From a virus (lineage: Duplodnaviria > Caudoviricetes), in the IMG/VR virus record IMGVR_UViG_3300030098_006079: a stretch of 64,000 bases of DNA; one strand, 5' to 3'. Below the pieces are notes generated by a model. The model had not been told where the DNA came from. It saw only the letters and a program-made list of their open reading frames with translations, and did no database searches. A program made the position numbers and the translations under genes. Below, piece after piece: positions 1 through 13,529 of this stretch (within the stretch, counting starts at the first letter, position 1; every line of letters begins with the position of its first letter).

Positions 1-1
1 A

Positions 2-241
2 TTGCTTGGTTATAAAGGCCCTGAGTATTATGATACTGGTATCATTTACTGTCCTTATATCCCGGTTATGGTACAGCGATCAATTGATCCTAATTCCTTC
101 TATCCGAAGGTTGGTATGTTGACACGTTATGGTGTTGTTGATCACCTCTTTGGTGCTTCTAACTACTATCATGTTGTTTTCGTACTTGGATTAGGAACCG
201 CAGTCGGTTCTGGTGCTGCTGCATACACACCATTCCAGTAA
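2..241 (+). CDS. 23: Major capsid protein (T4 gp23 family), C-terminal fragment
   Basis: GYKG..YDTGIIYCPYIPV...FYPKVGMLTRYG matches the gp23 C-terminal signature; truncated by window start; followed by a terminator. Confidence 0.9.
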   Translation: MLGYKGPEYYDTGIIYCPYIPVMVQRSIDPNSFYPKVGMLTRYGVVDHLFGASNYYHVVFVLGLGTAVGSGAAAYTPFQ

Positions 242-260
242 TCTTTAAGATTATAAACAT

Positions 261-291
261 AAAGAGCGCCCGAAAGGGCGCTCTTTTTTTT
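261..291. terminator. Rho-independent terminator, probably bidirectional
   Basis: AAAGAGCGCCC-GAAA-GGGCGCTCTTT plus T-tract, between convergent gene 23 and queF. Confidence 0.92.
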
Positions 292-308
292 ATTATGATG
301 AATAAGGA

Positions 309-1226
309 TTATTGTCTCAATGTTTTGATCCACGGAACCGTATGATCCCAAAAGAACTCATCAATCAAATATTCATGAGTAGTTCTAATAGGGTTAATGT
401 CCCAACCACCTCGTCGTACATATAAACATGCTACCATAAGGGACCGCGGCTCAAAAGTATTATTCAATCTAGTAAAAATAGTCTCACAAATCTCTTCATG
501 AAAATGACATTCATCTCTAAAAGAGATAATATACTTTAACAATTCTTTATCAGATGGATGCTTGGTACCTTCAAGAGAGATAAACACATCACCCCAGTCA
601 GGTTGAGAAGTAACACGACAGTTACTCTTAAGTAAGGATGACATTACTCTGTAAGGCTTATTAGTAGAGTTCAAATGCTTTGTCTCTAACAAGCCGGGTG
701 TTTCACTATAAACATTTACATAATAACTCTCTGCATCAATCTCATCAGTATTTTCTAATCTCTTATAGTTCTTATCAGTAAAAGGATTATCATTACTAAA
801 TGTATCGCTTGTAGGAAATACAGTAACTCTTACATCTGTCTGAAGATACTTACTCAAGTCTTTCGAAGCTGTATCTTCTAGATTCTTAATTACCTTATCA
901 AACGTATCTCCCATCTTAGTCATATTGAATGTATTCCAATACAACTTCATAGATTTAGATTCAACGATATACTTACTATCAGAAGGATATACTACTTTAG
1001 CAACCCCGCAAACAGGCACACCATTATTAGTTAATGCTGATATCTCGTAACCATTCCATACATCACAACCAATAAAAGGTAAGCTCTTTTCTTTAATGCC
1101 TAAGTGCTTACGATTACTCGATCGTGGTTCTCTCACTAACAGACTTGCATCATACTCAGATTTATACTGACTAGACTGTCCTAAGTGCTTACTAATATTT
1201 TTATTATCTAGTTTTGACATCTTCAA
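309..1226 (-). CDS. queF: NADPH-dependent preQ0 reductase, bimodular QueF
   Basis: QueF motif VESKSMKLYWNTFN, catalytic LKSNCRVTSQPDWG, FHEEICE and YVRRGGWDINP. Confidence 0.92.
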   Translation of the reverse strand: MKMSKLDNKNISKHLGQSSQYKSEYDASLLVREPRSSNRKHLGIKEKSLPFIGCDVWNGYEISALTNNGVPVCGVAKVVYPSDSKYIVESKSMKLYWNTFNMTKMGDTFDKVIKNLEDTASKDLSKYLQTDVRVTVFPTSDTFSNDNPFTDKNYKRLENTDEIDAESYYVNVYSETPGLLETKHLNSTNKPYRVMSSLLKSNCRVTSQPDWGDVFISLEGTKHPSDKELLKYIISFRDECHFHEEICETIFTRLNNTFEPRSLMVACLYVRRGGWDINPIRTTHEYLIDEFFWDHTVPWIKTLRQ

Positions 1227-1758
1227 TAATCTCTATCATCTTATTATATCTACTCTCTACACTTCCTTCCAGTACATAAATATTAGGATACTTCCCTAAT
1301 ATCAATTCTTCATATAGTTTAATAATTTGACTTCTAAAACTCTCACTCATAGATCTTTCTCCATCATTGATAAGAGGAACATCATAAGGATTAGTATAGA
1401 AGATACAATCATACTTTTCTATATATCTACCTAATGCATAACTAAACATTTTATCTACAAACTCATTTACTTTACCTTGTATTCTAAAATATCTAGTATA
1501 AACAAAACCATCTACTATACAACGATCTAAGATATTGTTCATATCTTTACCGCTATAAGTAAATAAATTTTGAATATGATCAGCAAAAATAGCTAACTGC
1601 GTATCATTATAGTTTGAACCATCGTCGTTAATCTCAAAACCACCACGCCGGATACGTCTTGTAACCTCATCGACTGAGCCCCATGCATTTGACTCTAAGA
1701 ATTCGCGCAACAGAGTAGTTTTACCACTACTCTGTGCGCCTGTAAAAGAAACTAACAT
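1204..1758 (-). CDS. P-loop nucleotide kinase-like protein (AAA_28/NadR-like)
   Basis: N-terminal Walker A FTGAQSSGKTT, ILDRC motif, DGERS lid-like segment. Confidence 0.7.
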   Translation of the reverse strand: MLVSFTGAQSSGKTTLLREFLESNAWGSVDEVTRRIRRGGFEINDDGSNYNDTQLAIFADHIQNLFTYSGKDMNNILDRCIVDGFVYTRYFRIQGKVNEFVDKMFSYALGRYIEKYDCIFYTNPYDVPLINDGERSMSESFRSQIIKLYEELILGKYPNIYVLEGSVESRYNKMIEIIEDVKTR

Positions 1759-2108
1759 TATTTACCCCAGACACCATTATCGACTATCTGAGCGATTTTG
1801 CAATATAAACTTGAATCTTTCCATGCATCTTGAATAGGTTCATTAGCAGCTTCAGCAGTACGTTTCTTAATGACGAGATTAATGAGTCTCTGTACTTTAT
1901 CATTAACACGGAATACTAGTCCAGCTTTAGCAACTAAACGGCCATCCGGTTTAGATAAGTCCTGACCTACAGAAATATTAGTAGGGCCATAGTCGTATTG
2001 CTTATTAATAAATAGCTTGTATTCTTCTTCGAGAAGATCTCTCAACATTGCACATGTCTCAGGATAATCATTCTCTACTTCCGCCTTGATTTCAGTGTAA
2101 TCTTTCAT
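1758..2108 (-). CDS. Nucleotide-modification-associated domain protein (DUF1599/Nmad1-like)
   Basis: KQYDYG...GLVFRVNDKVQRL...D..KD...Y pattern; lies inside the base-modification operon. Confidence 0.7.
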   Translation of the reverse strand: MKDYTEIKAEVENDYPETCAMLRDLLEEEYKLFINKQYDYGPTNISVGQDLSKPDGRLVAKAGLVFRVNDKVQRLINLVIKKRTAEAANEPIQDAWKDSSLYCKIAQIVDNGVWGK

Positions 2109-2670
2109 TTAAAAAATTTATCCAAAGTTTTGTAGATTCAACATGAAGAGCTTTTTCTAGTTCTTCATATGTATTAAAGTTATTATCTATAATTGCATTT
2201 GCAACAATAGGACCATCATCGAGCTCGGGCGTTACCTTATGAATAACGCACCCAGCTCGATCATGTTTTGCTTCCCAAGCTTTTTTCTGAGGGTTAAAGC
2301 CTTTCAATTCTGGATAGATATCAATAGCGCCTGGATGACCATTATAGATGTTTGATGATCTAGTAAAGTCAGGAGGTAATATTCTCAGATACCCGTGCAA
2401 AGTAACAAACACCCCTTTAGCCCAATCATCATTAAGAATAGAATAGTTAAGAGCATCAGCTGCTTTAAGATAATCCATCTCTTTTGGCCATTTAGGTAAT
2501 CGTACAAACGGGAGACCTCCTGTTGACCTCTTATAGATCAATTCAATATTTGTACCTATATCTTCTTGTCTATTAGTAACAATAAGATCAGGCCATCTTT
2601 TGATCTGTTTAGAGATGTTTACAATTTCAGAACCAGTCTGACTATAAAATGCTACCCACTTCATTACCAA
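2092..2670 (-). CDS. PurN-like formyltransferase, probably DpdN-type preQ1 formyltransferase
   Basis: Formyl_trans_N motifs LHGYLRILP, NGHPG, GCVIHKVTPELDDGPIV; located between dpdA-like and queF genes. Confidence 0.8.
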   Translation of the reverse strand: MVMKWVAFYSQTGSEIVNISKQIKRWPDLIVTNRQEDIGTNIELIYKRSTGGLPFVRLPKWPKEMDYLKAADALNYSILNDDWAKGVFVTLHGYLRILPPDFTRSSNIYNGHPGAIDIYPELKGFNPQKKAWEAKHDRAGCVIHKVTPELDDGPIVANAIIDNNFNTYEELEKALHVESTKLWINFLNERLH

Positions 2671-3494
2671 TATCTTCTTTTAATAATTCTTTTGAACTGA
2701 CTTGTATTATACAAAATACGCTCTACTGCATCTTCATCAGGTTGCGCACCTATTAAGTCTGCTAACAGTTGTGATGGTTTATGATCTAGACCGAAGTCTC
2801 CATTATAGGTATAACCTAACAGACCTGCTACAACTGGATTAGATGTATCTAAGCTTCTAATATTATAGATATTATTATCTACATACCATCTAAACTCACT
2901 CGCAAGTGACGCACCTAACAAATGATGAGGTTTATTCCAGTCCCATTCTCCTTCGTCAATTAATCTTTTAACTAGATTCTGTCGTCCAGTGGATTGCCTT
3001 TTCAATTTAGCGTTTTCATCACAAATATGGCTAATGCCTGTAACATGATACATACTAAAATCGAAACTGATAGCGACATAATCCGCATTATTTTTCATAA
3101 AGCGATAACAATCTACTACCTCTGACCAAGTATCGCCTTGAACTGCTCCTATTCTAGCGCCTGGTAATTTACCATAGTTAGCTCGAAAATCTTTAAAATG
3201 ACTTATTGTCGCTGGTCCATTTTCAAGAACATCAGGGACAATATAATAATTAGGTTTAATCTTCTCACACCAAATAGCGTATTTGTCAGCATCAAACGCT
3301 TCTTTTAGTTCAAAGATAGAATTATCTAAGAGAATCTCTCCATTAGGTACTTTAGCTCTATATTTTTCTAGAAACCATTCTTTATATTCTTCTTGTTCTT
3401 CCATTAGATGGACTAAACAATATTGATAATCATTGTATTCTACCGATTCTGGTAGGAGAGCTATAGGAGATTCGTGCGATACCTTAATCGTCAT
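2664..3494 (-). CDS. dpdA: TGT-fold 7-deazaguanine DNA transglycosylase, DpdA-like (DpdA3-type suspected)
   Basis: LLDNSIFE, IVPDV, GAVQG, HHLLG, IRSLDTS motifs of TGT/DpdA barrels; no C-terminal Zn site visible; first gene of the queF operon. Confidence 0.72.
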   Translation of the reverse strand: MTIKVSHESPIALLPESVEYNDYQYCLVHLMEEQEEYKEWFLEKYRAKVPNGEILLDNSIFELKEAFDADKYAIWCEKIKPNYYIVPDVLENGPATISHFKDFRANYGKLPGARIGAVQGDTWSEVVDCYRFMKNNADYVAISFDFSMYHVTGISHICDENAKLKRQSTGRQNLVKRLIDEGEWDWNKPHHLLGASLASEFRWYVDNNIYNIRSLDTSNPVVAGLLGYTYNGDFGLDHKPSQLLADLIGAQPDEDAVERILYNTSQFKRIIKRRYW

Positions 3495-3500
3495 ACTTTT

Positions 3501-3528
3501 ATTATAGTGGTTTCACTATAAAGATCAA
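3501..3528 (-). promoter_or_regulatory. Sigma70-like promoter of the deazaguanine operon with overlapping inverted repeat
   Basis: Minus strand TTGATC-N16-TATAAT; palindrome TATAGTG-GTTT-CACTATA at 3503-3520. Confidence 0.65.
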
Positions 3529-3531
3529 GTA

Positions 3532-3538
3532 ATAAATA
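3532..3538 (+). promoter_or_regulatory. T4-type late promoter core
   Basis: ATAAATA just upstream of the ATG at 3544. Confidence 0.55.
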
Positions 3539-3543
3539 ATTAT

Positions 3544-4860
3544 ATGGCTTTTAGCTTTGATACTCTTGTCAACGATCAAAAACAAGCTGCAGTAGATGTA
3601 GTTGATACTATTACTCCAAGACAAGTCAAACAGATAGGTAATGCATATAAAGAAGGTTTAAATGCATCTCCTAAACAAGTTATTAATGAGACTCTCGAAC
3701 AATTTACAGGCGTTAATCTGAGCCAGGGTGCAGGAGCAGATGGGTTAGGCCAGCAATTAAAAAGTTTTTTTGCTAGTCAAGCTGGTAATCTCGCGTTACA
3801 GCTAGAGCAACAAATTTTAGGTTGTATAAATACTCAAATTAGAGACTTAATGAACAGAGTTCCTGAGCTTGCTTTTGCGTTAGATTTTGAAAATCAGATT
3901 AATCAAATCTTAGGTGACTTTCGAAATAAGTTAGAACAAAAAATCGACGGAGAATTACGTAAGCTCGCATATAAGAAAATTAAAATACAGCAAACCGCTT
4001 TATTTAAACAGCGTATTCGCGCTAAAATAAAAGATATATGCCCTGGAGCAACTCCTGCAAGTGTTGCTGAGGTAAGAGATTTTAACAATAAGATAAAAGG
4101 TTTACTCGAAAAAAGACAGAGTGATAGTGTTGTGCCAGATACTAGCCCTACTATACCAGCAACGAGTATAACAACTAAATCTAAACCCAGTAAACAAGTA
4201 CCGACTGCTGTAGAAGGTCCTAGTGAGAGTCTTAAGAAAATTGTAAGAGAGGATCCAGTAAAGACACGAGAATTTGTTAGTGAGAAAACAGAAGAAGCAA
4301 AAAAAGTAGTAGAAGATACTGCTGTAGAGGAGTTAGATGAAGGGGATGACACAACAATAGAAGCTTTATCTGAAACTGTACCAAAAGAAGAAGTCCGTAA
4401 AAAAACTTGGTCAGCTTATAAAGTTGTAATTGTTAGAGCTAATATATTAAAAGACGGTGGAGTGTCTAACACTGATAATATAAATATTATTTTAGATAAA
4501 GCTGTGCCAGAGATTTTCTCAGAGTTTAAAAACAACATTGATAATGATCGTAAGTGGGATGATTCTCTTTTTGATAAAGAGAAAACCGAGAAAAAGAAGA
4601 ATTTAAGCCTTGGAGATGTTATGGTGTCAAGCTCGGCTGATCTTGTTAGTTATGGTGTAAGTCCTGCTACTGGCTTAAAGACAGCTATGGTGTCTTATAC
4701 GTTTCGTATAAACCATAAAACAGAATCTCGGTTTCTACACACTGCAAAGGTAATGGGAGAAATGTTTCAGGGTATGGGAGAGAGTTATGCTGAGGCAAGC
4801 AAATCGGCTTTAAATCTCTTAGAAAAAACAACAAGAAGAAAAACCTTAATGGAAAGCTAA
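3544..4860 (+). CDS. Hypothetical protein, possibly baseplate-associated
   Basis: 438-aa ORF with late-promoter motif, 9 nt upstream of the gp5-like gene; helical N-terminus and Pro/Thr/Glu-rich linker. Confidence 0.6.
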   Translation: MAFSFDTLVNDQKQAAVDVVDTITPRQVKQIGNAYKEGLNASPKQVINETLEQFTGVNLSQGAGADGLGQQLKSFFASQAGNLALQLEQQILGCINTQIRDLMNRVPELAFALDFENQINQILGDFRNKLEQKIDGELRKLAYKKIKIQQTALFKQRIRAKIKDICPGATPASVAEVRDFNNKIKGLLEKRQSDSVVPDTSPTIPATSITTKSKPSKQVPTAVEGPSESLKKIVREDPVKTREFVSEKTEEAKKVVEDTAVEELDEGDDTTIEALSETVPKEEVRKKTWSAYKVVIVRANILKDGGVSNTDNINIILDKAVPEIFSEFKNNIDNDRKWDDSLFDKEKTEKKKNLSLGDVMVSSSADLVSYGVSPATGLKTAMVSYTFRINHKTESRFLHTAKVMGEMFQGMGESYAEASKSALNLLEKTTRRKTLMES

Positions 4861-4869
4861 GTTTAAACT

Positions 4870-7254
4870 ATGAGTGTATATGTAAATGCAAACCCTGGTT
4901 CAGAACTTCAACCGAGAAAAGAATATTTCGGTAACTATCTTGGTATAGTCGTACAAAATAATGACCCAGATAAAGGCGGTAAGGTAAAAATATGGGTACC
5001 TCATATTTCCCCTACAGTGTATGAAAACTGGGATGAAAAAAATGAAGATAAATCATTTAAGTTTATTGGTAGAAATATCGATAGTGATATTACTGATATT
5101 GTAGAAGATTTAAAAAGAATACTTCCATGGGCTGAGTCTGCTTCTCCTATTATGGGAAGTTCTGCACCTGGTCGCTACAACGCTCACGATCAATTCGCTA
5201 CTATATCTGATACTAATAAACACTCAACTGCCTATCCTAAGTATGAAGAAGAAGGAGATCAACGATATAAATTAAATGATGATGGTATAGGTGAAAAACC
5301 AGCTCGTAAATATGAAGTACATTCTTTAAAGGTACATGATGCGTTCGCAGATAAAAACAAAGTTAACTTTAATAATTTAAATTTATATTCCTATAATTAC
5401 GTACCTTCTTCCTACTCTAATAGTGCAAAAGGTAGTTTTAGTATACCTAATGTAGGTGCACATGTATGGGTTTTCTTTAGTGAAGGGGATCCTAATAACC
5501 CTGTTTACTTTGCTACAACACACGGTACTGATGAATGGAAGTCTATACATAATAACTTTAACTCTCATGGTACAGACTATCCTGGTGCGTATGAAAACAC
5601 GTCTAAAGATTTAGATCCTAACTATAACCATAATACAGAGACGTATAGAAACAAATATGTTATAAATCAAAAAGGCGGTACAATTGAAATAGTAAGTACT
5701 GATAATAAAGAATCATTAAAATTTACACATTACTCTGGTTCGTTTAAAGAGTTTAATAATAAAGTTAATACTGAACTCGCAACAAATAATAACCAAAAAT
5801 TAGTACAAGGGGATGAGTTTTTTACAGTCAATGGTACTAAAAATGATTACGTTGGGAGAGATTATGATCAAATTGTTACCGGGGATTATTATAAGAAGAT
5901 TGGTAATTTAGAATATCAAATACATAAAGAGTGGAGAGATATAATGGAGACAATTGCTGATGCAAAGCAGTTGTTTGAGCAAAAGCGTACCGGAGTAGTT
6001 ACTGACACTAATCCGTTTATTAAAAAGAGTAGTGCTAAACAAACTAAAAGTGGTACTCCAGGGCCCTGCCCATTATGTAAGGAAACAACCACCAGAGATT
6101 TAATTTATGATAATTCATATGCGTTTACAAAAGTAAACCCTAATTATGAATATAAAAAAGGAGTACTTGTGTTTGATCATAGCGGAGAAATTACTTCTGC
6201 TAATTCAAATACAATGAGTAAACTAATAGCTCCAACCACATCGGGTAACTTTTTAGATGGAGGAGCATGTCCTGTGTGCGGTGGATCAGGGGAAAGTCCA
6301 TCAAGTTATAATGGACAATGGGACCCATCAGAAAAAGATACGCTTATTATCACTACACTCCGTGCACAAATCCAAAATGTAATTAATCTCGAAAAACAAT
6401 TAGGTATAGGTGGTAGTGAAATTATTAATGTATCAAAGCATAAGATAGAAAATATAGGTCTTATTTACAACGACTTTCCGTCGGTACGTATTGATGAAGC
6501 TGGTAAAATAGAGAACTATGAAACTAAAGTATTTCCTAAAGGGGTTGTTACAACTAAAAAAGAATCTGCTCTATTAGAGTATGTACATGTTGATGACTTC
6601 CCAGGTGGTGATTTTACTCAAAATATAGGTAACAAATGGAATGTATTAGTTGGTAGTGGTGGTGTATCTATTAAATCTACAGGTGGTGTAGATATTGGAG
6701 GTACTATAACTAACGTCGCGGGTCAGCAAGTTAATATTTCTTCTGAGTATGAAACTAACATTTCATCAAAGAGAGTTAATATCGCTGCTGAAATGCTCAC
6801 CTTACGTAATAAAAATAATAGACAAATTTTAGTTGACGGTAATCTAGGTGTTAATCAAAATGTTGTAATAGGTGGTAGTATGCATGTAGAAGGAGAGTTA
6901 AGTGTTCAGCATATTACTGCTCCTGTTGAGATACAAGAGACTGAACCAGTTGTAGCGTATAGTAAATTACTGACTGGTCTAGCGTTTGAGGCAACTATTA
7001 GCGGACACACTAAAGAAGGAACTGATGGTGCGAAAAATGGAGATTGTACAATAACCTTGAAAACAGATAGTAACGATAATTTAGTTAAAGCATATCCTCA
7101 CACCCATCCGTTCAAGAATGTGCCGCTCAAGTTAATGAAAGACAAAGATGAAGTACGTAAGGTAGGAGCCAAGCAAACAGACTTGCAAGGCCGTTCATCT
7201 GCAATCCCGGTCATACACGAACAAAAAACCGGTGAGACAGGTCCCACCGGTTAA
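4870..7254 (+). CDS. 5: Baseplate hub/central spike protein (gp5/VgrG-like, no lysozyme domain)
   Basis: OB-fold YLGIVVQNNDP..GKVKIWVP and SIPNVGAHVWVFFSEGDPNNPVYF; beta-helix repeats; C-terminal HTH(P) tip motif. Confidence 0.8.
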   Translation: MSVYVNANPGSELQPRKEYFGNYLGIVVQNNDPDKGGKVKIWVPHISPTVYENWDEKNEDKSFKFIGRNIDSDITDIVEDLKRILPWAESASPIMGSSAPGRYNAHDQFATISDTNKHSTAYPKYEEEGDQRYKLNDDGIGEKPARKYEVHSLKVHDAFADKNKVNFNNLNLYSYNYVPSSYSNSAKGSFSIPNVGAHVWVFFSEGDPNNPVYFATTHGTDEWKSIHNNFNSHGTDYPGAYENTSKDLDPNYNHNTETYRNKYVINQKGGTIEIVSTDNKESLKFTHYSGSFKEFNNKVNTELATNNNQKLVQGDEFFTVNGTKNDYVGRDYDQIVTGDYYKKIGNLEYQIHKEWRDIMETIADAKQLFEQKRTGVVTDTNPFIKKSSAKQTKSGTPGPCPLCKETTTRDLIYDNSYAFTKVNPNYEYKKGVLVFDHSGEITSANSNTMSKLIAPTTSGNFLDGGACPVCGGSGESPSSYNGQWDPSEKDTLIITTLRAQIQNVINLEKQLGIGGSEIINVSKHKIENIGLIYNDFPSVRIDEAGKIENYETKVFPKGVVTTKKESALLEYVHVDDFPGGDFTQNIGNKWNVLVGSGGVSIKSTGGVDIGGTITNVAGQQVNISSEYETNISSKRVNIAAEMLTLRNKNNRQILVDGNLGVNQNVVIGGSMHVEGELSVQHITAPVEIQETEPVVAYSKLLTGLAFEATISGHTKEGTDGAKNGDCTITLKTDSNDNLVKAYPHTHPFKNVPLKLMKDKDEVRKVGAKQTDLQGRSSAIPVIHEQKTGETGPTG

Positions 7255-7275
7255 CTAAAATTAATGTAAGTAGTT

Positions 7276-7698
7276 TTAAGCTACCTTAACATCAATTACT
7301 TTAGCTTCTTTACGAGCTTTCCGAGGAATAGTGATACTAAGTACCCCTTCTGAGATAGTAGCATCAAGCTCTGCACAATTCATCTCGTTACTTGGATGAA
7401 ATGAGCGAGTATATGTTTCTTCCTTACTACCAGTCTTAGTAGTAATTGAGCGCTTTGCCTCAACATATACATTATTAGATTCCTCAGAGTAAGTAACTTT
7501 GAGGTTTTCCTTCTTCACACCTGGAAGATCAATTTCAATGCGAGCACCATCTTCACTTTCATTAAAACGAATATTATCGTTTGAGAATGAAGCTGGAGTA
7601 GCAAAATTGTCTCCAAATGCAGTGTTGAATAAGTCAACGACTGGGCTGACTGACCCCGCCCGAGGGTTTGTTGTTAAGTAATTAAATAAGTTAGACAT
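7276..7698 (-). CDS. Small heat-shock protein (Hsp20)
   Basis: Alpha-crystallin motifs IEIDLPGVKKENLKV, ATISEGVLSITIP and C-terminal IDV. Confidence 0.88.
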   Translation of the reverse strand: MSNLFNYLTTNPRAGSVSPVVDLFNTAFGDNFATPASFSNDNIRFNESEDGARIEIDLPGVKKENLKVTYSEESNNVYVEAKRSITTKTGSKEETYTRSFHPSNEMNCAELDATISEGVLSITIPRKARKEAKVIDVKVA

Positions 7699-7706
7699 AA
7701 CGTAAG

Positions 7707-7736
7707 TATTTATACGCTATACCAGAGAAAGTGCAA
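7707..7736 (-). promoter_or_regulatory. Overlapping sigma70-like and late promoters for hsp20
   Basis: Minus strand TTGCAC-N16-TATAAA; the -10 is part of an exact TATAAATA at 7707-7714. Confidence 0.6.
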
Positions 7737-7739
7737 GAA

Positions 7740-7979
7740 TTATCTTATTTGGCGCTCGATCTTCTTTCCGGAGCGAATATTTTGTATAATCATTTTTTTC
7801 GCAACACCTATACGAACAGTAAAGTTAACGGTATCACCAGACATAACAGGAGAGCCTTCAATCTTACCAGGGTATCTATAGTTTTTAACTATATTACCTT
7901 TCAATGTCTCTCTAATTTGTAATTTAACAGAATTACCTTGTTGAGTTGCAATAGCGTAGTATGTCTCGTTTTTGTTCAT
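7740..7979 (-). CDS. Hypothetical protein
   Basis: 79-aa ORF with TAAATA upstream on the minus strand. Confidence 0.6.
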   Translation of the reverse strand: MNKNETYYAIATQQGNSVKLQIRETLKGNIVKNYRYPGKIEGSPVMSGDTVNFTVRIGVAKKMIIQNIRSGKKIERQIR

Positions 7980-8033
7980 TTTAATTATTTAATAATACTG
8001 GTATTAATGTGGTTAATATATTAAATATTTTAT

Positions 8034-9047
8034 ATGGCAACGGTTAAGAAGGCTAGATTATTTCTACGTAGAGGAACTGATACAGATAGAAAAACCTCAG
8101 TTCTGTGTTCTGGTGAGCTCGGTTACTCAACTGATGCATTTAGAGTTTTTATAGGTGATGGTGCTACATTAGGTGGTAACCCAGTTGGTATTACATCTTT
8201 TATGAGCGCGGGTTCTGCGTTTCATACAGATCTTGTTGAAGCATCAGCAGCCGGCTACGCATTCAAAGGTGATTTTGCTTTATTCCCATCTAAAACATAT
8301 CTTAATTTAAATAATACTCAAATTACTCCCCCGACAGGTTTTGCTGTTGCCATGGTATTAACAGGTGAAGATGGAGCTAGTAATGCTCAATCATGGGTTG
8401 CTTTAAACTCAGGCATTCCGTTTGGTAATATTGTTGTAGGTGACGATGAAATCTCAGCTGATAAAATTCACGGTGGTACGTTTTCTGGTGATGTAAATTT
8501 TGAAATGTCATCTGCGACAACTAAGCTTAGTAGTTTATCAGTTTCCCACTTAACAGCTTTTAATGCGACAATTTCTGGTGCTGGTGGTAGCGGTCATAGA
8601 TATGTTTTATCTGACCCAGACGGTAAGCTATGCAACTCAGCTGAGACATATGATATCGGTAATACGGGTATTCAATGGCTTACTCTTTATCACGAAATAA
8701 CAGCGCGAGACCCATCAGCATCTACTGTACCTGGACATAATCAAGATCATGAATATACCTTGCCGGCAGCCGTGCCGTCATCTGCTACATCTGTATTATT
8801 AGCTGGTACTTGGCGAAGAAACGATCGCATGAACCCGCCTGCTATCTTATATGCTGGTGATGTACATGCTCATTTCATTCTCGCCCAAGCATGGGTTGCT
8901 AATGATGAATTAGCGGCAGGAGCGTTCCAATCATGGATACCGATTGGTGCTAATAAAAAAATTAAAATTAAATTTAATGATAAGTGGGCTGGATTAACAG
9001 GCAATTCTACTAGCCAATGGGGTCTAAGTGCTATAGCTTGGATGTAA
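8034..9047 (+). CDS. Virion structural protein with Mtd_N-like N-terminal domain
   Basis: RLFLRRGT....LCSGELGYSTD..RVFIGDG is the Mtd_N/hyaluronidase-N pattern; TAAATA at 8022. Confidence 0.7.
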   Translation: MATVKKARLFLRRGTDTDRKTSVLCSGELGYSTDAFRVFIGDGATLGGNPVGITSFMSAGSAFHTDLVEASAAGYAFKGDFALFPSKTYLNLNNTQITPPTGFAVAMVLTGEDGASNAQSWVALNSGIPFGNIVVGDDEISADKIHGGTFSGDVNFEMSSATTKLSSLSVSHLTAFNATISGAGGSGHRYVLSDPDGKLCNSAETYDIGNTGIQWLTLYHEITARDPSASTVPGHNQDHEYTLPAAVPSSATSVLLAGTWRRNDRMNPPAILYAGDVHAHFILAQAWVANDELAAGAFQSWIPIGANKKIKIKFNDKWAGLTGNSTSQWGLSAIAWM

Positions 9048-9536
9048 TTAGTTTTCCCAAGGAAATACTATCCATTCATCATTATCAAACTCTTTCACTG
9101 TATGGTGAGGCATGAATGTAGATTTAGGTTTGTAATATAATGTAGAATAAACCCATTGATTTTGCTCTGGTCTTTCCCATGTGACTATATTATCTATTTG
9201 TTTAACTTTACGAAGAGTCATTCCAGTATCAGCTAAATCATCTACTATAAGTATTTTCTCTTCATCTCTCAATGTACCGAAGTCTGGAAATGTAACTAGC
9301 TTTACTACATCAGTTTCTGAATGTTCTCCATCTCGAGGTTTATCATCTACATAAGACTTTAAATTTGCGGAAAGCAGTTTATCTACTTTAAGATACTTAG
9401 CTAATAAGGTCGCAGGAATCATACCTCCATTAGCAATTCCAATAATACAGGTAATTTTTTCTTTTGATAAATTATCTGCTAAGGTTTTGCAGTCTTGTTT
9501 TATATCATCCCAGGTCAAATAAGTTTTATTAGGCAT
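9048..9536 (-). CDS. Type I purine phosphoribosyltransferase (Gpt-like)
   Basis: IGIANGGMIPA, PRPP loop ILIVDDLADTGMT, C-terminal WIVFPWE. Confidence 0.88.
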   Translation of the reverse strand: MPNKTYLTWDDIKQDCKTLADNLSKEKITCIIGIANGGMIPATLLAKYLKVDKLLSANLKSYVDDKPRDGEHSETDVVKLVTFPDFGTLRDEEKILIVDDLADTGMTLRKVKQIDNIVTWERPEQNQWVYSTLYYKPKSTFMPHHTVKEFDNDEWIVFPWEN

Positions 9537-9698
9537 TTACAATGTAACTTCTTTTCCTATATATTTTACCAATTGTTTCAAATTTTCAAGGGCCTTTTCT
9601 TTTTCCGATACGTTCATTTTTTTAGCTTCTTTATACAGTCTAAGAATTAAGTCTGGAGTGACAATATGTTTCTCTTTTATAGCGGAGCTATTTTTCAT
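9537..9698 (-). CDS. Small hypothetical protein (53 aa, absent from ORF track)
   Basis: MKNSSAIKEKHIVTPDLILRLYKEAK...; stop codon abuts the PRTase ATG. Confidence 0.55.
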   Translation of the reverse strand: MKNSSAIKEKHIVTPDLILRLYKEAKKMNVSEKEKALENLKQLVKYIGKEVTL

Positions 9699-9767
9699 AT
9701 AAATATTTACACAACTCTTTCTAACATCAATCTGTAAAAACAGTTGTTTTTTGTTAAATAATTAATA

Positions 9768-12700
9768 ATGTCAATGTCAGTCTATAGTGAAGTCGTCGCG
9801 GAATCTGCTTTTGGATATCATAGAGATCGTGTTTTAGATACTCTACAAAATCCAGATTTAGATTTACCTTATAATTTAGATACTATAAAGATTAGTCATA
9901 ACGACTTTGCTGTTTCTGATGTATATAACGACAGTATAAAAAAATTATATAGTAACTATTTGTTTTTAATTGCTAATGCAGAAATTACTACTAATATTTC
10001 TCCTTTAACATCGAATATTGGTTATGTAAAATATGATGCAAATAATGCTGCCACTAAAGTTGCTATTACTACAGCGCCTCAAGACGGTACTGGAACAAGT
10101 AATTTGTCTGGTACCGTAGAAACGTTTGTAACAAACAAAATTGACAGTAGTAATAAATTAGTATTCTTTAATTATAGTATCTCAGACAATAATGTGTTTG
10201 AAGCTAACTATGACTTAACAAATCTTTCTACCTCAATTAATGATAGGTTTGTAGAGTTTAATAAAACATTTACGTTTAATAATGTTGTGAGTGTTGATTC
10301 TATCGGCTCAACATTATTTGTTTTAGATAAAGGATTAAACACTGTATTTAAATTCGATGTAACTGGTTTATTAGCTGATGATCCAGCTCTAAAAAGAACG
10401 AGTTATACTGATACAGAACATCCTGGTAGGTTTTTGTTAAAGACAATTGGTGGTCAAGGTACATCTCAAACTAAAAATAAATTATCCAACCCGAGTAGTT
10501 TATCAGTTTATAAAGATAGAATTTATATATTAGATAATGGTAATAATAGTGTTAAAGTTTTTGATTTAGATTTTAATTTTTTACATGAATTATCCAGCCC
10601 TGAATTGTTTAATAATCCTAATTTTGGTGAACCTGTCTCAATTGTAGTAAGTAAGAAGTTTAATACTTTAGATATACCATGGGGTTACATTTTAACAAGT
10701 AGAGGAAATATTTTAGAGTATGATGTAAGAGAGAATAGGTATGGTGTTGTTCATTCACCATATGATATATATGATACAAGATTACAAACTCTATCCTCTT
10801 ATAATGAAACAAGTAGTTGGAAGAAAATTATTAATTCTAAGTCTGACGATAATATACTTTATATAGCTAATGACAAAGAAATATATAAATTTTATAAAAC
10901 TAATTTTAACTTACCAGTTAGTGTACTAAATTTACGTAAAGCAAATATTAGTATGAATAACGATAGTTCTGGTCAGCGTATTTTGTCTTTTGATAATACT
11001 TTATATGATGGCGCTGATTATTTAGCTATAACAACAGTTTTAAATAAAGATAATAGTAAGACTCAAACATATGTAGTAATGGATAAAAACATTCCTACAA
11101 AACTATATAATGAAAGTTTTTATACTAATTACTTCTCTTTATCAGATATATTAATTTTACCGCAAGAGATTGTTAACAATATTACATTTAACAAAACTAC
11201 AAAAAAACTTTTATATAATCATTATTCTTTATTTGAAAATATTAATAAAAAAGTTTATAGTTATTATCAAGATGTAAGTGGTTATGCTATTGTTCCTACA
11301 TTATGTACTGTAACAGGAAAAGACTTTACAAAGCCAACTAGTTTTGATGATACACCGAATTTGTATATTGGTATTAATGAACCTATTTTAACTGATGTAA
11401 TAAATAGACCATTAGAAATTTTGTATGATCAACAAAAAGATATATTTAATACATTAAAAGAAGAGAGTCTTAATAATAACCCTCCGTCAAACATACCGTC
11501 TCAGTTACCTGGTAGATATGAAAACGCTTTGAATGTTCTTACTTTAACAGCAACCCAGGCTTCAGTTGCAGCTGGTGAGAGTGTACAGATTGGAGTTGTA
11601 AGAACCAACGCATTGAGCTTATCAAGTAATTGTTCGTTTAAATTTTGGACTACGCTAGGTACCGCTGCGAAAAAAGATTTAGAGTATATAGACGAGGAAA
11701 ATCCAAGTATACTTGAATTTGAGCGCGGTGAAACTGAAATTACATTCCCGCTAGGTACTTTTAAAGAATTTAATAGTACTGAAAAAACATTCTCAGTATA
11801 CATTGAACAAGATGTAAATTGTGTTATTGATTATAATTATCAAAAACTTGATGTTACGATTACACCAATTGAAGATATGTACTCCGTTAGTGTGTCAACT
11901 TCGTTTGTTAATATGAAGGAAGGACAAAATAATCGCGTAGGTTTCGTCCGTCATAATGTAAATGGAGACTATAAAGAGCGGACTGGTATATTAGTTGAAA
12001 TTGATACTGATTTAAGTGATTCTGTATATATACCAAATATTGCTTCTGTTGATACGCACACAATTATCACTGGTTCAACATCTCAACAAGACATGCCTGG
12101 TGTTCCAGGTGGTACAGATCTGTTTATGGCATCTGCAGCTGAAATAAAAGACACAGGAACAATTTGGTTTAATGAGGGAGTAAGTTCAGTAGTGTTTGAT
12201 ATTAGTGCTGTGAATGATTTATCTCAAAATACAGGTAGTAAAAAGTTAGATATAGTTATAAAAAATCCAACTGTTGGATCTAATATATCTCCTCTTGAAA
12301 AAAGAGATTATATTGACCCGAGTAGAACATCTGTATTTATTGGTGATGCGGAACCGAAACCTATATTTTTAAATTTAACAAGTATAGCGCCATTATATTC
12401 AGCTCATGACGCACCGTTTGTAGTACCTGACGTAAACAGCGGAACTATTACAAACATGGTGAGTAATGTTAATATATGGGAAGCTTTAGTTATGAGCACG
12501 GCTGAGAGTAACACAAATGCATTTTCTGCTGTTTCAGCTTCTCATCCAATTAGTGCTTGTTTTACAGTTAATGCTCCTTTATCTGTTATATCAGTATCAG
12601 CTTTATCTGGCGCGTTAGATTTTGCACCACCAAGCAATGCAGAAGGACAGTTTGTATATACTAATAATAGAATAGATATTATTATTGAAGAGGGTGCTGC

Positions 12701-13490
12701 TGTTGTAGGTAAAGGTGGTCGAGGAGGTCATGGTTGGTTATGGGAGTCAGGAAGCGATTTTGCTTTTAACGGTACTGATGATATTTCAATATATAATCAG
12801 CGTATCGGTGAAGATGGTGGTCCTGCTATTGGTAATTTTGATACTTATTTTGATAACTTTACTATTACAAATGCTGGTTCTGTTATAGGTGGAGCTGGTG
12901 GAGGTGCTCCTGGTCATGTTGGTTTAAGTGCTTCTGTTATGCATCACGTTTCTGCTTTATCAGCTGGTAGTGGTGGTGGAGGTGGAGCGGGTATACATGT
13001 AAGTAATGCTGGTTTAGGTGGTTTGGCTGCGGTTGGAGAATCTACACAAAATTCTTTATATACGTTTAGTTTTCGTAGAGATGGTTTCCCTGGCGGTGTT
13101 AACGTTGGTGGTGAGGGTGGTGGTCATCATGACGCAGGAGGTACAAATCATACATACCCATTTGTACCTATACGAGTACTACCTGGTAGTAATTCAACTA
13201 CAGATATTGGAGACGGTACAGGTACACCAGCTAACTTACATATTAATGTAACTAAATATCCTGTCTTGTGTGGTAAAAACGGTGGTAATATTGGAGAAGC
13301 GGGTGGTACAGATACCAGCGCAGTTGAACCAGATCAAACACCCGCTACAGGTACGAGCTTTAGTACAGTGTCAGATGAGTTTGCAGAAAGAACTGGTGGT
13401 CTTGCTGGTAAACTTATGGATACTTCAAAACAGGTCACATATAGAGGGTCGGGACATAAAAAGGGTGACGAAACTAATATAGTAGAATAA
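9768..13490 (+). CDS. Large virion adhesin: NHL-like propeller, Calx-beta-like repeats, gp38-like glycine-rich C-terminus
   Basis: LSNPSSLSVYKDRIYILDNGNNSVKVFD (NHL); LEFERGETEITF and IWFNEGVSSVVF (Calx-beta); VGKGGRGG...ITNAGSVIGGAGGG...GSGGGGGAG; TAAATA at 9755. Confidence 0.7.
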   Translation: MSMSVYSEVVAESAFGYHRDRVLDTLQNPDLDLPYNLDTIKISHNDFAVSDVYNDSIKKLYSNYLFLIANAEITTNISPLTSNIGYVKYDANNAATKVAITTAPQDGTGTSNLSGTVETFVTNKIDSSNKLVFFNYSISDNNVFEANYDLTNLSTSINDRFVEFNKTFTFNNVVSVDSIGSTLFVLDKGLNTVFKFDVTGLLADDPALKRTSYTDTEHPGRFLLKTIGGQGTSQTKNKLSNPSSLSVYKDRIYILDNGNNSVKVFDLDFNFLHELSSPELFNNPNFGEPVSIVVSKKFNTLDIPWGYILTSRGNILEYDVRENRYGVVHSPYDIYDTRLQTLSSYNETSSWKKIINSKSDDNILYIANDKEIYKFYKTNFNLPVSVLNLRKANISMNNDSSGQRILSFDNTLYDGADYLAITTVLNKDNSKTQTYVVMDKNIPTKLYNESFYTNYFSLSDILILPQEIVNNITFNKTTKKLLYNHYSLFENINKKVYSYYQDVSGYAIVPTLCTVTGKDFTKPTSFDDTPNLYIGINEPILTDVINRPLEILYDQQKDIFNTLKEESLNNNPPSNIPSQLPGRYENALNVLTLTATQASVAAGESVQIGVVRTNALSLSSNCSFKFWTTLGTAAKKDLEYIDEENPSILEFERGETEITFPLGTFKEFNSTEKTFSVYIEQDVNCVIDYNYQKLDVTITPIEDMYSVSVSTSFVNMKEGQNNRVGFVRHNVNGDYKERTGILVEIDTDLSDSVYIPNIASVDTHTIITGSTSQQDMPGVPGGTDLFMASAAEIKDTGTIWFNEGVSSVVFDISAVNDLSQNTGSKKLDIVIKNPTVGSNISPLEKRDYIDPSRTSVFIGDAEPKPIFLNLTSIAPLYSAHDAPFVVPDVNSGTITNMVSNVNIWEALVMSTAESNTNAFSAVSASHPISACFTVNAPLSVISVSALSGALDFAPPSNAEGQFVYTNNRIDIIIEEGAAVVGKGGRGGHGWLWESGSDFAFNGTDDISIYNQRIGEDGGPAIGNFDTYFDNFTITNAGSVIGGAGGGAPGHVGLSASVMHHVSALSAGSGGGGGAGIHVSNAGLGGLAAVGESTQNSLYTFSFRRDGFPGGVNVGGEGGGHHDAGGTNHTYPFVPIRVLPGSNSTTDIGDGTGTPANLHINVTKYPVLCGKNGGNIGEAGGTDTSAVEPDQTPATGTSFSTVSDEFAERTGGLAGKLMDTSKQVTYRGSGHKKGDETNIVE

Positions 13491-13529
13491 CTACTTGATC
13501 TCTAAAGTTTTACTATATAAGTATAGTTA

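What the first reader, a model, noticed from the sequence alone, without database searches (positions are those of the whole stretch)
309..3494. 7-deazaguanine operon predicting formyl-preQ1 DNA in a T4-like phage
Seen: five tightly coupled minus-strand genes (TGT-fold, PurN-like, DUF1599-like, kinase, QueF) directly behind gene 23. Known: QueF reduces preQ0 to preQ1; DpdA transglycosylases insert deazaguanines in DNA; a PurN paralogue (DpdN) has been proposed to make fdPreQ1, and DpdA3 is linked to complete G replacement. Inferred: this genome carries fdPreQ1 as anti-restriction armour. folE/queD/queE/queC are absent from the window and must lie elsewhere or come from the host.
Basis: partly seen in the sequence, partly recalled or inferred. 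Interest (0 to 1): 0.75.

Follow-up and report, generated by a model that had tools for sequence, protein, structure and literature searches.

The report
Phage formyl-preQ1 DNA modification operon
An uncultured marine T4-like phage carries a diverged copy of the published gene set that replaces every guanine in phage DNA with a formylated 7-deazaguanine; the nucleotide-type kinase and pyrophosphatase-like gene wired into it suggest the swap may be made on free nucleotides rather than on finished DNA.

Summary
In detail: five translationally coupled minus-strand genes at 309-3494, bounded by a promoter-like site and a hairpin, lie convergent with gene 23.

They are orthologues of the Flavobacterium phage immuto cluster:
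- DpdA3: 44% identity, TGT/DpdA fold.
- DpdN: 41% identity, PurN catalytic Asn/His/Asp intact.
- AAA_28 kinase-like protein: 33% identity.
- QueF: 47% identity, Cys/Asp/His/Glu intact.
- The fifth gene is weakly DUF1599-like and has no counterpart in the immuto cluster.

Immuto DNA was shown by mass spectrometry to carry fdPreQ1 in place of all dG (PMC10516641). A 99.96% identical 202-kb Tara Oceans scaffold carries FolE, QueD and QueE about 44 kb away. QueC was seen only in two relatives.

This is a new member of a known kind, and the scan has met the same module on other DNA before.

What the literature does not discuss:
- The kinase accompanies DpdA3 in 59 of 64 loci and in all cultured DpdA3 phage lineages.
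- A pyrophosphohydrolase-like gene is present in 34 of 39 loci with DpdN and in none of 25 without.
- GMP reductase or pyrophosphatase is inserted in some relatives.

This keeps open a pre-replicative, nucleotide-level route (about 40%).

The parts
2664..3494 (-). DpdA3-type guanine transglycosylase (276 aa), a minimal TGT-fold barrel without the zinc subdomain
   Evidence: 44% identity, E 1e-64, to immuto gp65 'DpdA'; about 40% identity to Campylobacter phage CP220 gp056; phrog_19058 E 9e-47. AlphaFold model pLDDT 92.4. Foldseek top 50 PDB matches are all tRNA-guanine transglycosylases, probability 1.0. VIA top matches are DNA preQ0 insertase DpdA 7ui4 (Z 18.0), ArcTGT (Z 17.9) and TGT (Z 16.2). 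Asp57, Asp88, Gln119-Gly120 and Asp216 are invariant.
2092..2670 (-). DpdN, a PurN-like formyltransferase (likely start at the ATG at 2664, 190 aa)
   Evidence: 41% identity, E 1e-42, full length, to immuto gp67 = DpdN. Pfam Formyl_trans_N 43.1 bits against a cut-off of 26.1. Asn110/His112/Asp151 align with E. coli PurN Asn106/His108/Asp144 and are invariant in six DpdN homologues.
1758..2108 (-). 116-aa DUF1599-like protein ('p116'), candidate all-alpha nucleotide pyrophosphohydrolase; function unproven
   Evidence: No Pfam hit for the window's own protein. 9 of 19 family members weakly hit PF07659 DUF1599, best E 0.0023. Atlas nearest clusters are DUF1599, score 0.96. In relatives the same slot holds a PF18909 dATP/dGTP diphosphohydrolase. 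One of the two is present in 34 of 39 loci with DpdN and in 0 of 25 without.
1204..1758 (-). AAA_28 P-loop kinase-like protein (184 aa) with a nucleoside/nucleotide kinase fold
   Evidence: Pfam AAA_28 52.4 bits against a cut-off of 27. 33% identity to immuto gp68. Model pLDDT 91.6. VIA matches: NadR ribosylnicotinamide kinase domain Z 18.3, human deoxyguanosine kinase Z 16.8, thymidylate kinases about Z 16.5. Adjacent to DpdA3 in 59 of 64 loci. In 50,697 phage records its homologues occur only in CP220-type Campylobacter phages and immuto; one record, CC_R7, gave no DpdA3 hit.
309..1226 (-). QueF, bimodular NADPH-dependent preQ0 reductase (likely start at the ATG at 1220, 303 aa)
   Evidence: Pfam QueF_N E 4e-32 and QueF E 2e-16. 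TIGR03138 E 3e-76 (256.6 bits, below the equivalog cut-off of 293). 47% identity to immuto gp69. Cys203/Asp210/His243/Glu244 align with E. coli Cys190/Asp197/His229/Glu230, and the ESKSMKLY motif lies at 89-96.
3501..3528 (-). Sigma-70-like promoter candidate for the five-gene unit
   Evidence: TTGATC-16-TATAAT, 10 of 12 matches, one of four sites tied for the best score in 1-3800, ending 7 nt before the DpdA3 start. This is a consensus match only; the total number of such sites is not above the shuffled expectation.
261..286 (.). GC-rich hairpin between the convergent ends of gp23 and QueF, a likely bidirectional terminator
   Evidence: 11-bp stem with 7 GC pairs and a 4-nt loop; the T-run is on the plus-strand side.
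9048..9536 (-). Gpt-like purine phosphoribosyltransferase (162 aa), possibly an accessory part of the pathway
   Evidence: Pfam Pribosyltran E 8e-15. Best NCBIfam match is xanthine phosphoribosyltransferase NF006613, E 5.5e-25, below its cut-off. Homologue (E 2e-16) of immuto gp60, which lies between QueE and FolE. A PRT follows DpdA3 within 6 kb in 3 of 64 loci.
2..241 (+). C-terminal end of the T4-type major capsid protein gp23 (context)
   Evidence: Pfam Gp23 E 4e-16; phrog_138 major head protein. The full 511-aa gene is seen on the Tara scaffold.

Best explanation
The five genes are the finishing and insertion half of a DpdA3-type 7-deazaguanine DNA hypermodification system, orthologous to that of Flavobacterium phage immuto. 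Elsewhere in the same roughly 202-kb genome, FolE, QueD and QueE (and, by inference from relatives, QueC) turn GTP into preQ0. QueF reduces the nitrile to the aminomethyl base preQ1. DpdN transfers a formyl group, most likely from 10-formyl-tetrahydrofolate, onto that amine. DpdA3 exchanges guanine for the deazaguanine. The predicted result is virion DNA in which most or all dG is replaced by fdPreQ1, which blocks restriction enzymes whose sites contain G. Shown here: homology, synteny, folds, intact catalytic residues and the presence of the upstream pathway genes. Inferred: the chemical identity of the base, the extent of replacement and the order of steps. The substrate of DpdA3 is unresolved. 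I put the published post-replicative exchange on DNA at about 50% and exchange on a guanine deoxynucleotide before replication at about 40%. In the second case the co-transcribed kinase and the pyrophosphohydrolase-like protein would be working parts of the pathway.
For: Gene-for-gene orthology and the same gene order as immuto gp65-gp69. Immuto DNA carries fdPreQ1 instead of dG and resists G-containing restriction sites (PMC10516641). DpdA3 has a TGT/DpdA fold and invariant acidic residues. The DpdN catalytic triad and the QueF catalytic residues are conserved. A Tara scaffold that is 99.96% identical to the window over 13.5 kb carries FolE, QueD and QueE about 44 kb before the window's start. 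QueC is present in the replication operon of two 116-200-kb relatives. The module is conserved in the same position, between the baseplate hub gene and gp23, in dozens of contigs.
Against: DpdN activity has not been demonstrated in any system, and DpdA3 could not be reconstituted in E. coli (PMC10516641). The phage is uncultured, so no DNA chemistry is available. I could not locate QueC on the window's own scaffold. The window's QueF scores below NCBIfam's equivalog cut-off.
Confidence: 0.78

Rival explanations
1. The end product is the same, but the route is pre-replicative and works on the nucleotide pool. A MazG-type pyrophosphohydrolase (p116, or PF18909 in relatives) makes dGMP from dGTP, or clears the unwanted triphosphate. 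DpdA3 swaps guanine for preQ1 or formyl-preQ1 on the deoxynucleotide. The AAA_28 kinase phosphorylates the new nucleotide, which host guanylate kinase would not accept. The phage polymerase then incorporates it. The Gpt-like PRT recycles the released guanine into GMP, then GTP, then preQ0. This is formally analogous to T4's dCTPase / dCMP hydroxymethylase / dNMP kinase route to hmC.
For: The kinase is adjacent to DpdA3 in 59 of 64 loci. Among 50,697 phage records its homologues occur only in CP220-type Campylobacter phages and immuto. Its fold matches small-molecule nucleoside and nucleotide kinases, including deoxyguanosine kinase and thymidylate kinases. Every cultured DpdA3 lineage has a P-loop kinase-like gene beside DpdA3 and usually an NTP phosphohydrolase as well: immuto gp63 PRA-PH and gp68; CP220 gp055 HD+AAA_33 and gp057; phiST gp039 MazG and gp041 AAA_18. 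Relatives insert a dATP/dGTP diphosphohydrolase, GMP reductase or inorganic pyrophosphatase into the module. DpdA3 lacks the zinc subdomain and is 100-140 residues shorter than TGT or bacterial DpdA. Only DpdA3 systems give 100% replacement, the ADG nucleoside was seen in CP220-infected cells, and a modified-dGTP route was once proposed for those phages (PMC10516641; PMC6884629).
Against: No TGT-family enzyme is known to act on a mononucleotide; known substrates are tRNA, DNA or a protein N-terminus (Cap10). The minimal DpdA3-kinase-QueF modules carry no pyrophosphohydrolase within the module. The pyrophosphohydrolase-like gene tracks DpdN rather than DpdA3, which could instead reflect folate supply through dihydroneopterin-triphosphate hydrolysis. 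p116's enzymatic nature is unproven. All of this evidence is genomic context.
Confidence: 0.4
2. The module modifies DNA, but the final base is not fdPreQ1. It could be plain dPreQ1 or a further or different derivative, with the PurN-like protein serving purine or folate metabolism as in cyanophage PurN auxiliary genes.
For: DpdN function is only predicted. PurN-like genes occur in cyanophages without deazaguanine genes. 18 of 64 loci lack DpdN altogether and presumably stop at dPreQ1.
Against: The window's protein is a full-length orthologue (41% identity) of the immuto DpdN group. Cyanophage PurN proteins match only 36-65% of its length, at 28-39% identity. It sits immediately after DpdA3 with overlapping stop and start codons, as in immuto. 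Immuto, with the same gene set, contains fdPreQ1 and no dPreQ1.
Confidence: 0.12
3. The genes boost or alter host tRNA queuosine or precursor supply rather than modifying phage DNA.
For: QueF and preQ0-pathway genes also serve tRNA queuosine synthesis. Some phages carry such genes without any DpdA (PMC6884629).
Against: The transglycosylase belongs to the DpdA3 group, and every experimentally examined member of that group comes from a phage with fully modified DNA. It lacks the tRNA-binding zinc and C-terminal regions of TGT. A formylated preQ1 has no known role in tRNA.
Confidence: 0.03

Closest known systems
[quoted passage not shown] 2023, PMC10516641)
   Same: Same gene order (DpdA3, DpdN, AAA_28 kinase-like, QueF) with 44/41/33/47% identity. 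A Gpt-like PRT homologue is present in both genomes. The preQ0 genes are encoded by the phage itself. Both are large myoviruses.
   Different: The proteins are only 33-47% identical. The host lineage differs: an uncultured marine T4-like phage, with the module lying between the baseplate hub gene and gp23. An extra DUF1599-like gene lies between DpdN and the kinase, whereas immuto has a PRA-PH pyrophosphohydrolase two genes upstream of DpdA3. The preQ0 genes are dispersed 44-60 kb away instead of lying adjacent.
Campylobacter phage CP220 group (Firehammervirus), dADG replacing all dG; DpdA3 = gp056
   Same: DpdA3 at about 40% identity with an AAA_28 kinase-like gene immediately downstream (gp057, about 29% identity). 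A phosphohydrolase lies directly upstream (HD + AAA_33 fusion gp055). T4-like myovirus.
   Different: No QueF or DpdN; the product is 7-amido-7-deazaguanine.
Cellulophaga phage phiST (dDG; DpdA3 = gp042/CGPG_00065, DpdL)
   Same: A distant DpdA3 preceded by a P-loop kinase-like gene (AAA_18) and a MazG pyrophosphohydrolase, next to QueD/QueE/FolE.
   Different: The sequence is too distant for direct BLAST from the window's protein; the link runs through a Bacillus phage homologue. No QueC, QueF or DpdN. The product is unsubstituted 7-deazaguanine. Siphovirus.
Bacterial DpdA/DpdB preQ0 DNA insertase (Salmonella Dpd system; PDB 7ui4, PMC10164549)
   Same: Best structural match of the 276-aa protein (Z 18.0, 237 residues, rmsd 3.3 A). 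It works with an ATP-using partner.
   Different: 11% identity. Bacterial DpdA has 413 residues against 276 for the window's protein, which has no zinc-binding Cys/His cluster after the barrel. In my recollection its partner DpdB is a ParB-like ATPase, not a nucleotide-kinase-fold protein. It modifies under 0.1% of G.
T4 hydroxymethylcytosine pathway (gp56 dCTPase, gp42 dCMP hydroxymethylase, gp1 dNMP kinase), a working analogue only
   Same: If the nucleotide-level reading is right, the logic is the same: a triphosphatase feeding a monophosphate to a base-modifying enzyme, followed by a dedicated kinase, giving 100% replacement.
   Different: No homology of the modifying enzyme. Here a base exchange rather than a base derivatisation would take place. 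Not demonstrated.

Membership tests
DpdA3 subfamily of the TGT/DpdA superfamily | Significant full-length similarity to named DpdA3 proteins (immuto gp65, CP220 gp056) | tested here: met
   BLASTP 44% identity, E 1e-64 over 268 aa; tblastn about 40% identity, E 9e-44 to 2e-41, to the CP220 group.
DpdA3 subfamily of the TGT/DpdA superfamily | TGT-type (beta/alpha)8 barrel fold | tested here: met
   Model pLDDT 92.4. Foldseek top 50 are all TGT, probability 1.0, TM 0.56-0.68. VIA: DpdA 7ui4 Z 18.0, ArcTGT Z 17.9, TGT Z 16.2, against 15 or less for generic TIM barrels.
DpdA3 subfamily of the TGT/DpdA superfamily | Catalytic aspartates of TGT (nucleophile and general acid/base) conserved | tested here: inconclusive
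   Asp57 (LDNS), Asp88 (PD) and Asp216 (DTSNP) are invariant in 22-34 homologues including immuto and CP220. No residue-level alignment to TGT could be obtained: hhalign was not significant and PDB profile searches found no TGT. Equating them with the TGT aspartates is inference from motif resemblance.
DpdA3 subfamily of the TGT/DpdA superfamily | Co-encoded with 7-deazaguanine synthesis genes | tested here: met
   QueF lies in the same operon. FolE, QueD and QueE lie on the 99.96% identical scaffold. QueC is present in relatives.
DpdA3 subfamily of the TGT/DpdA superfamily | Guanine/7-deazaguanine exchange activity, and on which substrate | not testable with these tools
   Never reconstituted for any DpdA3 (PMC10516641).
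Canonical tRNA TGT / bacterial DpdA | Zinc-binding Cys/His subdomain after the barrel | tested here: not met
   The protein ends about 60 residues after Asp216 and has no Cys in that stretch. It has 276 aa, against 375 for E. coli TGT and 413 for DpdA.
DpdN (preQ1 formyltransferase group of PurN-like proteins) | Full-length orthology to immuto DpdN (gp67) | tested here: met
   41% identity, E 1e-42 over 187 aa. Immuto is the only full-length hit among cultured phages.
DpdN (preQ1 formyltransferase group of PurN-like proteins) | Formyl_trans_N domain with the Asn/His/Asp catalytic triad | tested here: met
   PF00551 43.1 bits against a cut-off of 26.1. Asn110/His112/Asp151 correspond to PurN Asn106/His108/Asp144.
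DpdN (preQ1 formyltransferase group of PurN-like proteins) | Formyl transfer to preQ1 or dPreQ1 | not testable with these tools
   Predicted only, even for immuto.
QueF, bimodular type (preQ0 reductase) | QueF_N plus QueF domains, the QueF motif, and catalytic Cys/Asp/His/Glu | tested here: met
   Both Pfam domains score above their gathering cut-offs. Cys203/Asp210/His243/Glu244 and ESKSMKLY are conserved. TIGR03138 gives E 3e-76, but 256.6 bits is below the equivalog cut-off of 293.45.
AAA_28 / NadR-RNK-like nucleoside or nucleotide kinases | P-loop, family HMM match and kinase fold | tested here: met
   Walker A motif GAQSSGKT at residues 7-14. PF13521 52.4 bits against a cut-off of 27. VIA Z 18.3 to the NadR kinase domain and 16.5-16.8 to dGK and TMPK. 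The substrate is unknown.
DUF1599 (PF07659, nucleotide modification associated domain 1) | Match to the family HMM | tested here: inconclusive
   The window's protein has no hit. 9 of 19 relatives match weakly, best E 0.0023. Atlas feature search gives 0.96 to DUF1599 clusters. The hhalign comparison with the PF18909 proteins that occupy its slot was not significant.
immuto-type fdPreQ1 DNA modification system | fdPreQ1 present in virion DNA | not testable with these tools
   Uncultured phage; needs LC-MS/MS or nanopore signal analysis.
immuto-type fdPreQ1 DNA modification system | Complete FolE-QueD-QueE-QueC-QueF set in the same genome | tested here: inconclusive
FolE, QueD, QueE and QueF are confirmed. 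QueC is confirmed only in relatives G001 and a 200,819-bp JGI contig.

The most novel reading that the evidence does not exclude
DpdA3 is not a DNA transglycosylase but a deoxynucleotide-level base-exchange enzyme. Together with the always-adjacent nucleotide-kinase-fold protein and a MazG-type pyrophosphohydrolase, it forms a pre-replicative pathway that builds (formyl-)preQ1 deoxynucleoside triphosphate for the polymerase. [quoted passage not shown]
Probability: 0.4. Interest if true: 0.8.

Novelty: new member of a known kind. Interest (0 to 1): 0.45.

Why it matters
The system itself is published, so this window adds a new and rather distant member.

The survey made here shows that the module is very common in uncultured aquatic T4-like phages:
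- At least 558 IMG/VR contigs and 3,332 protein clusters carry a DpdA3 relative.
- The module always sits at the same place in the structural region.
- It comes in a form with DpdN and a form without.

A large share of abundant ocean phages may therefore carry no canonical guanine. That matters for restriction and CRISPR escape, for sequencing and nanopore basecalling of viromes, and for nucleotide budgets in infected cells.

The kinase, the pyrophosphohydrolase-like gene, GMP reductase and the PRT are consistently wired to DpdA3, and the literature I could read does not discuss this. It makes the question 'is complete G replacement pre- or post-replicative?' directly testable with a handful of enzyme assays in the cultured immuto or CP220 systems.

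Tried and rejected
- The window's own genome is not held, and the Tara record cannot be searched as a whole.
- Sequence-only links from the 276-aa protein to TGT failed: Pfam and NCBIfam gave nothing even at E 10; phmmer and profile searches of PDB found no TGT; hhalign against E. coli TGT was not significant; one profile comparison call failed internally. The fold claim therefore rests on structure prediction, plus the HHpred result the paper reports for phiST.
- Isoelectric point as a proxy for DNA binding was uninformative. The DpdA3 median pI is 5.3, but E. coli TGT is also acidic at 5.97.
- hhalign of the p116 family against the PF18909 and 180-aa proteins that occupy its slot was not significant, so homology between them is not shown.
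- The p116 profile against PDB sequences gave only chance hits.
- I tried to place QueC on the window's own scaffold through homologues and cluster members. I found QueC only on relatives, and no listed member sits on the 201,956-bp scaffold.
- An exact 52-mer from the window found only the relatives whose DpdA3 is 94% identical in IMG/VR.
- Literature searches found no paper on the DpdA3 mechanism beyond Cui et al. 2023, and nothing useful on DUF1599.
- I did not run complex prediction. I do not claim that DpdA3 and the kinase bind, and a pass would not separate the two mechanisms.
- The Fisher P for the link between DpdN and the pyrophosphohydrolase-like gene is not a real probability, because the loci are related. 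At 70% DpdA3 identity there are only 17 clusters.

Full report
**Observation**

ORF listing shows five minus-strand ORFs at exactly the reported coordinates:
- 2664-3494 (276 aa)
- 2092-2670 (192 aa)
- 1758-2108 (116 aa)
- 1204-1758 (184 aa)
- 309-1226 (305 aa)

With the ATG starts that gene callers chose on an identical contig, successive genes overlap by 1, 17, 1 and 17 nt. The C-terminus of a T4-type major capsid protein ends at 241 on the plus strand (Pfam Gp23, E 4e-16), so the operon converges on gene 23. An 11-bp GC-rich hairpin at 261-286 lies between the two gene ends. A sigma-70-like site (TTGATC-16-TATAAT, 3528-3501), one of four tied for the best score in the region, lies just before the first gene.

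**Identity of the parts**

- **QueF.** Both QueF Pfam domains are present, and TIGR03138 gives E 3e-76. Aligned with E. coli QueF, it keeps Cys190, Asp197, His229 and Glu230 (here 203, 210, 243, 244) and the ESKSxKLY motif.
- **The 192-aa protein.** It matches Formyl_trans_N above the gathering score. Asn110/His112/Asp151 align with the PurN catalytic Asn106/His108/Asp144.
- **The 184-aa protein.** It is an AAA_28 P-loop protein.
- **The 276-aa protein.** It has no Pfam, NCBIfam or PDB sequence match at any threshold. An AlphaFold model built on 34 homologues is confident (pLDDT 92.4). Foldseek returns only tRNA-guanine transglycosylases among the top 50 PDB matches (probability 1.0). An independent all-against-representatives search ranks the bacterial DNA preQ0 insertase DpdA first (7ui4, Z 18.0, 237 residues), then archaeosine TGT (Z 17.9) and bacterial TGT (Z 16.2), ahead of generic TIM barrels.
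- **The 116-aa protein.** It has no direct family hit. However, 9 of 19 family members weakly match DUF1599, 'nucleotide modification associated domain 1' (best E 0.0023), and the Atlas feature search points the same way (0.96).

**Comparison with the known system**

tblastn against 50,697 phage records finds the 276-aa protein only in three groups:
- Flavobacterium phage immuto, where it is annotated DpdA
- the CP220 group of Campylobacter phages
- Bacillus phages, weakly

The immuto neighbourhood reads DpdA, a small ORF, PurN-like, 'thymidylate kinase', QueF. That is the window's order. Pairwise identities are 44, 41, 33 and 47%.

Cui, Hutinet et al. 2023 (PMC10516641) report the following:
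- Immuto DNA contains fdPreQ1 at 345,000 per million nucleotides and no dG.
- Its DNA resists restriction enzymes with G in their sites.
- Its transglycosylase was named DpdA3, the subfamily linked to complete replacement in CP220, phiST and immuto.
- The PurN paralogue was named DpdN, a predicted and unvalidated formyltransferase.

The 276-aa protein groups with DpdA3 and not with tRNA TGTs.

**The rest of the pathway**

The window has no folE, queD, queE or queC (tblastn with immuto proteins). The exact DpdA3 protein lies on a 201,956-bp Tara Oceans scaffold. That scaffold matches window 1-13,494 at 99.96% identity. About 44 kb before the window's start, the same scaffold carries three genes:
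- FolE (Pfam GTP_cyclohydroI; NCBIfam FolE E 4e-48)
- QueD (PTPS)
- a diverged QueE (five QueE models, best E 5e-13)

A 116-kb relative whose DpdA3 is 80% identical has QueE, QueD, FolE and QueC. Its QueC passes the TIGR00364 cut-off and sits between uvsX and a GMP reductase. A 200,819-bp JGI contig shows the same arrangement in its replication operon. I could not retrieve QueC from the window's own scaffold.

**Distribution**

The DpdA3 family is large. It has 3,332 clusters at 90% identity in the protein collection and at least 558 IMG/VR stretches.

I examined 64 non-duplicate loci with at least 4 kb downstream of DpdA3. Most sit between a gp5-like hub gene and gp23. Gene content of the module was:

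| Gene | Loci (of 64) |
|---|---|
| Kinase-like gene | 59 |
| QueF | 57 |
| DpdN | 39 |
| 116-aa gene | 24, always together with DpdN |

Two main forms exist: DpdA3-kinase-QueF (18 loci), and DpdA3-DpdN-(extra genes)-kinase-QueF (39 loci).

**What the literature does not cover**

Cui et al. never mention a kinase or a phosphoribosyltransferase. The context nevertheless points to nucleotide metabolism:

1. The kinase's fold matches small-molecule nucleoside and nucleotide kinases: NadR kinase domain Z 18.3, human deoxyguanosine kinase Z 16.8, thymidylate kinases about Z 16.5. Its homologues among cultured phages occur only in CP220-type Campylobacter phages and immuto; one record, CC_R7, gave no DpdA3 hit.
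2. In relatives lacking the 116-aa gene, the same slot holds a PF18909 dATP/dGTP diphosphohydrolase. One or the other is present in 34 of 39 loci with DpdN and in none of 25 without. The loci are related, so this is a pattern and not a statistic.
3. Some relatives insert a GMP reductase (341 bits against a cut-off of 344) or an inorganic pyrophosphatase into the module. In others the GMP reductase sits beside QueC.
4. Every cultured DpdA3 lineage repeats the theme:
   - immuto: gp63 PRA-PH pyrophosphohydrolase and gp68 AAA_28
   - CP220: gp055 HD+AAA_33 and gp057 AAA_28
   - phiST: gp039 MazG and gp041 AAA_18, directly before DpdA3
   - Bacillus phages BSTP/BSP7: a P-loop gene before a DpdA3-like gene, beside PolA
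5. The window and immuto both encode a Gpt-like purine phosphoribosyltransferase.
6. DpdA3 lacks the zinc subdomain of TGT and of bacterial DpdA.

**Mechanism**

The core reading is that this operon, with the dispersed preQ0 genes, gives fdPreQ1 DNA. I hold that at about 0.78. The substrate of DpdA3 is open.

- *Published view: post-replicative exchange on DNA.* It is supported by homology to DNA- and tRNA-acting enzymes. It leaves the kinase and the pyrophosphohydrolases unexplained.
- *Alternative: exchange on a guanine deoxynucleotide.* A dedicated kinase would follow, then polymerase incorporation, in the manner of T4's hmC pathway. This explains the gene linkage, the 100% replacement, the failed reconstitution in E. 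coli, and the ADG nucleoside seen in CP220-infected cells. No TGT-family enzyme is known to use a mononucleotide.
- *Another possibility for the pyrophosphohydrolase-like gene.* Its link to DpdN could reflect folate supply.

I put the nucleotide route at about 0.4. I wrote this idea down before reading earlier scan notes. Those notes raise the same idea on other genomes. They agree with it but are not independent evidence.

**Verdict**

This is a real, well-bounded operon and a new and fairly distant member of a known, published kind of system. It sits in an abundant uncultured marine T4-like phage. The added value is the survey, which shows how common the module is, and the consistent nucleotide-enzyme wiring, which makes the pre- versus post-replicative question testable.

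Noticed in passing
window 9048-9536 (-): A Gpt-like purine phosphoribosyltransferase, homologue of immuto gp60, which lies between QueE and FolE in that phage. It could recycle the guanine released by DpdA3 into GMP, then GTP, then preQ0, or it could ribosylate the deazaguanine base. A PRT also follows DpdA3 in a few other loci (L034, L078, L093).
   Followed up: partly
L074:9402-10355, L015:2156-3109, L116:4662-5618: A GMP reductase gene (341 bits against the NCBIfam cut-off of 344) appears either inside the DpdA3 module (6 of the 64 surveyed loci) or directly after QueC in the replication operon of relatives. It therefore moves between the two deazaguanine gene clusters and seems functionally tied to the pathway.
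   Followed up: partly
L097:3902-4690 (Bacillus phage BSTP12 gene 038) and relatives BSTP5/8/10, BSP7, BSP19, Weizmannia phage Youna2: Cultured Bacillus phages carry a DpdA3-like gene annotated variously as NadR, integrase, polynucleotide kinase or hypothetical. It sits between QueD/QueE/FolE and DNA polymerase I and bridges by BLAST to phiST, CP220 and immuto DpdA3. No QueC was seen in the stretch shown. These phages may have 7-deazaguanine DNA that their annotations do not reveal.
   Followed up: partly
L084:11446-12765; L036:10230-10742; L048:6974-7423; L052:3551-4093: Other lineage-specific inserts occur inside the DpdA3 module: a radical SAM/SPASM protein (439 aa), an inorganic pyrophosphatase, a cupin, and a 180-aa protein with no family that is found in 8 loci. 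Some may produce further derivatives of the base.
   Followed up: no
L108:3377-4541 (Tara scaffold, next to QueE/QueD/FolE; outside the window): A heptose-1-phosphate adenylyltransferase-like gene (RfaE domain II, E 7e-49) and a second, longer AAA_28 protein (246 aa) lie directly beside QueE, followed by glycosyltransferases. This may relate to the fibre-glycosylation genes noted elsewhere in this genome.
   Followed up: no
window 30142-43338, 43422-47147, 47154-51941 (+): Three very large consecutive ORFs (4398, 1241 and 1595 aa), presumably tail-fibre proteins. Earlier notes on this window already treat them.
   Followed up: no
window 7276-7698 (-) and 8034-9047 (+): A phage-encoded HSP20/alpha-crystallin small heat-shock protein (E 1e-12), and a 337-aa protein with an Mtd_N (major tropism determinant N-terminal) domain. 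Both lie between the baseplate hub gene and the PRT.
   Followed up: no
window coordinates versus the Tara scaffold: The window starts at about position 185,117 of the 201,956-bp scaffold and runs 64 kb, which is beyond the scaffold's end. The window's source must therefore be another assembly or a circular permutation of the same genome.
   Followed up: no
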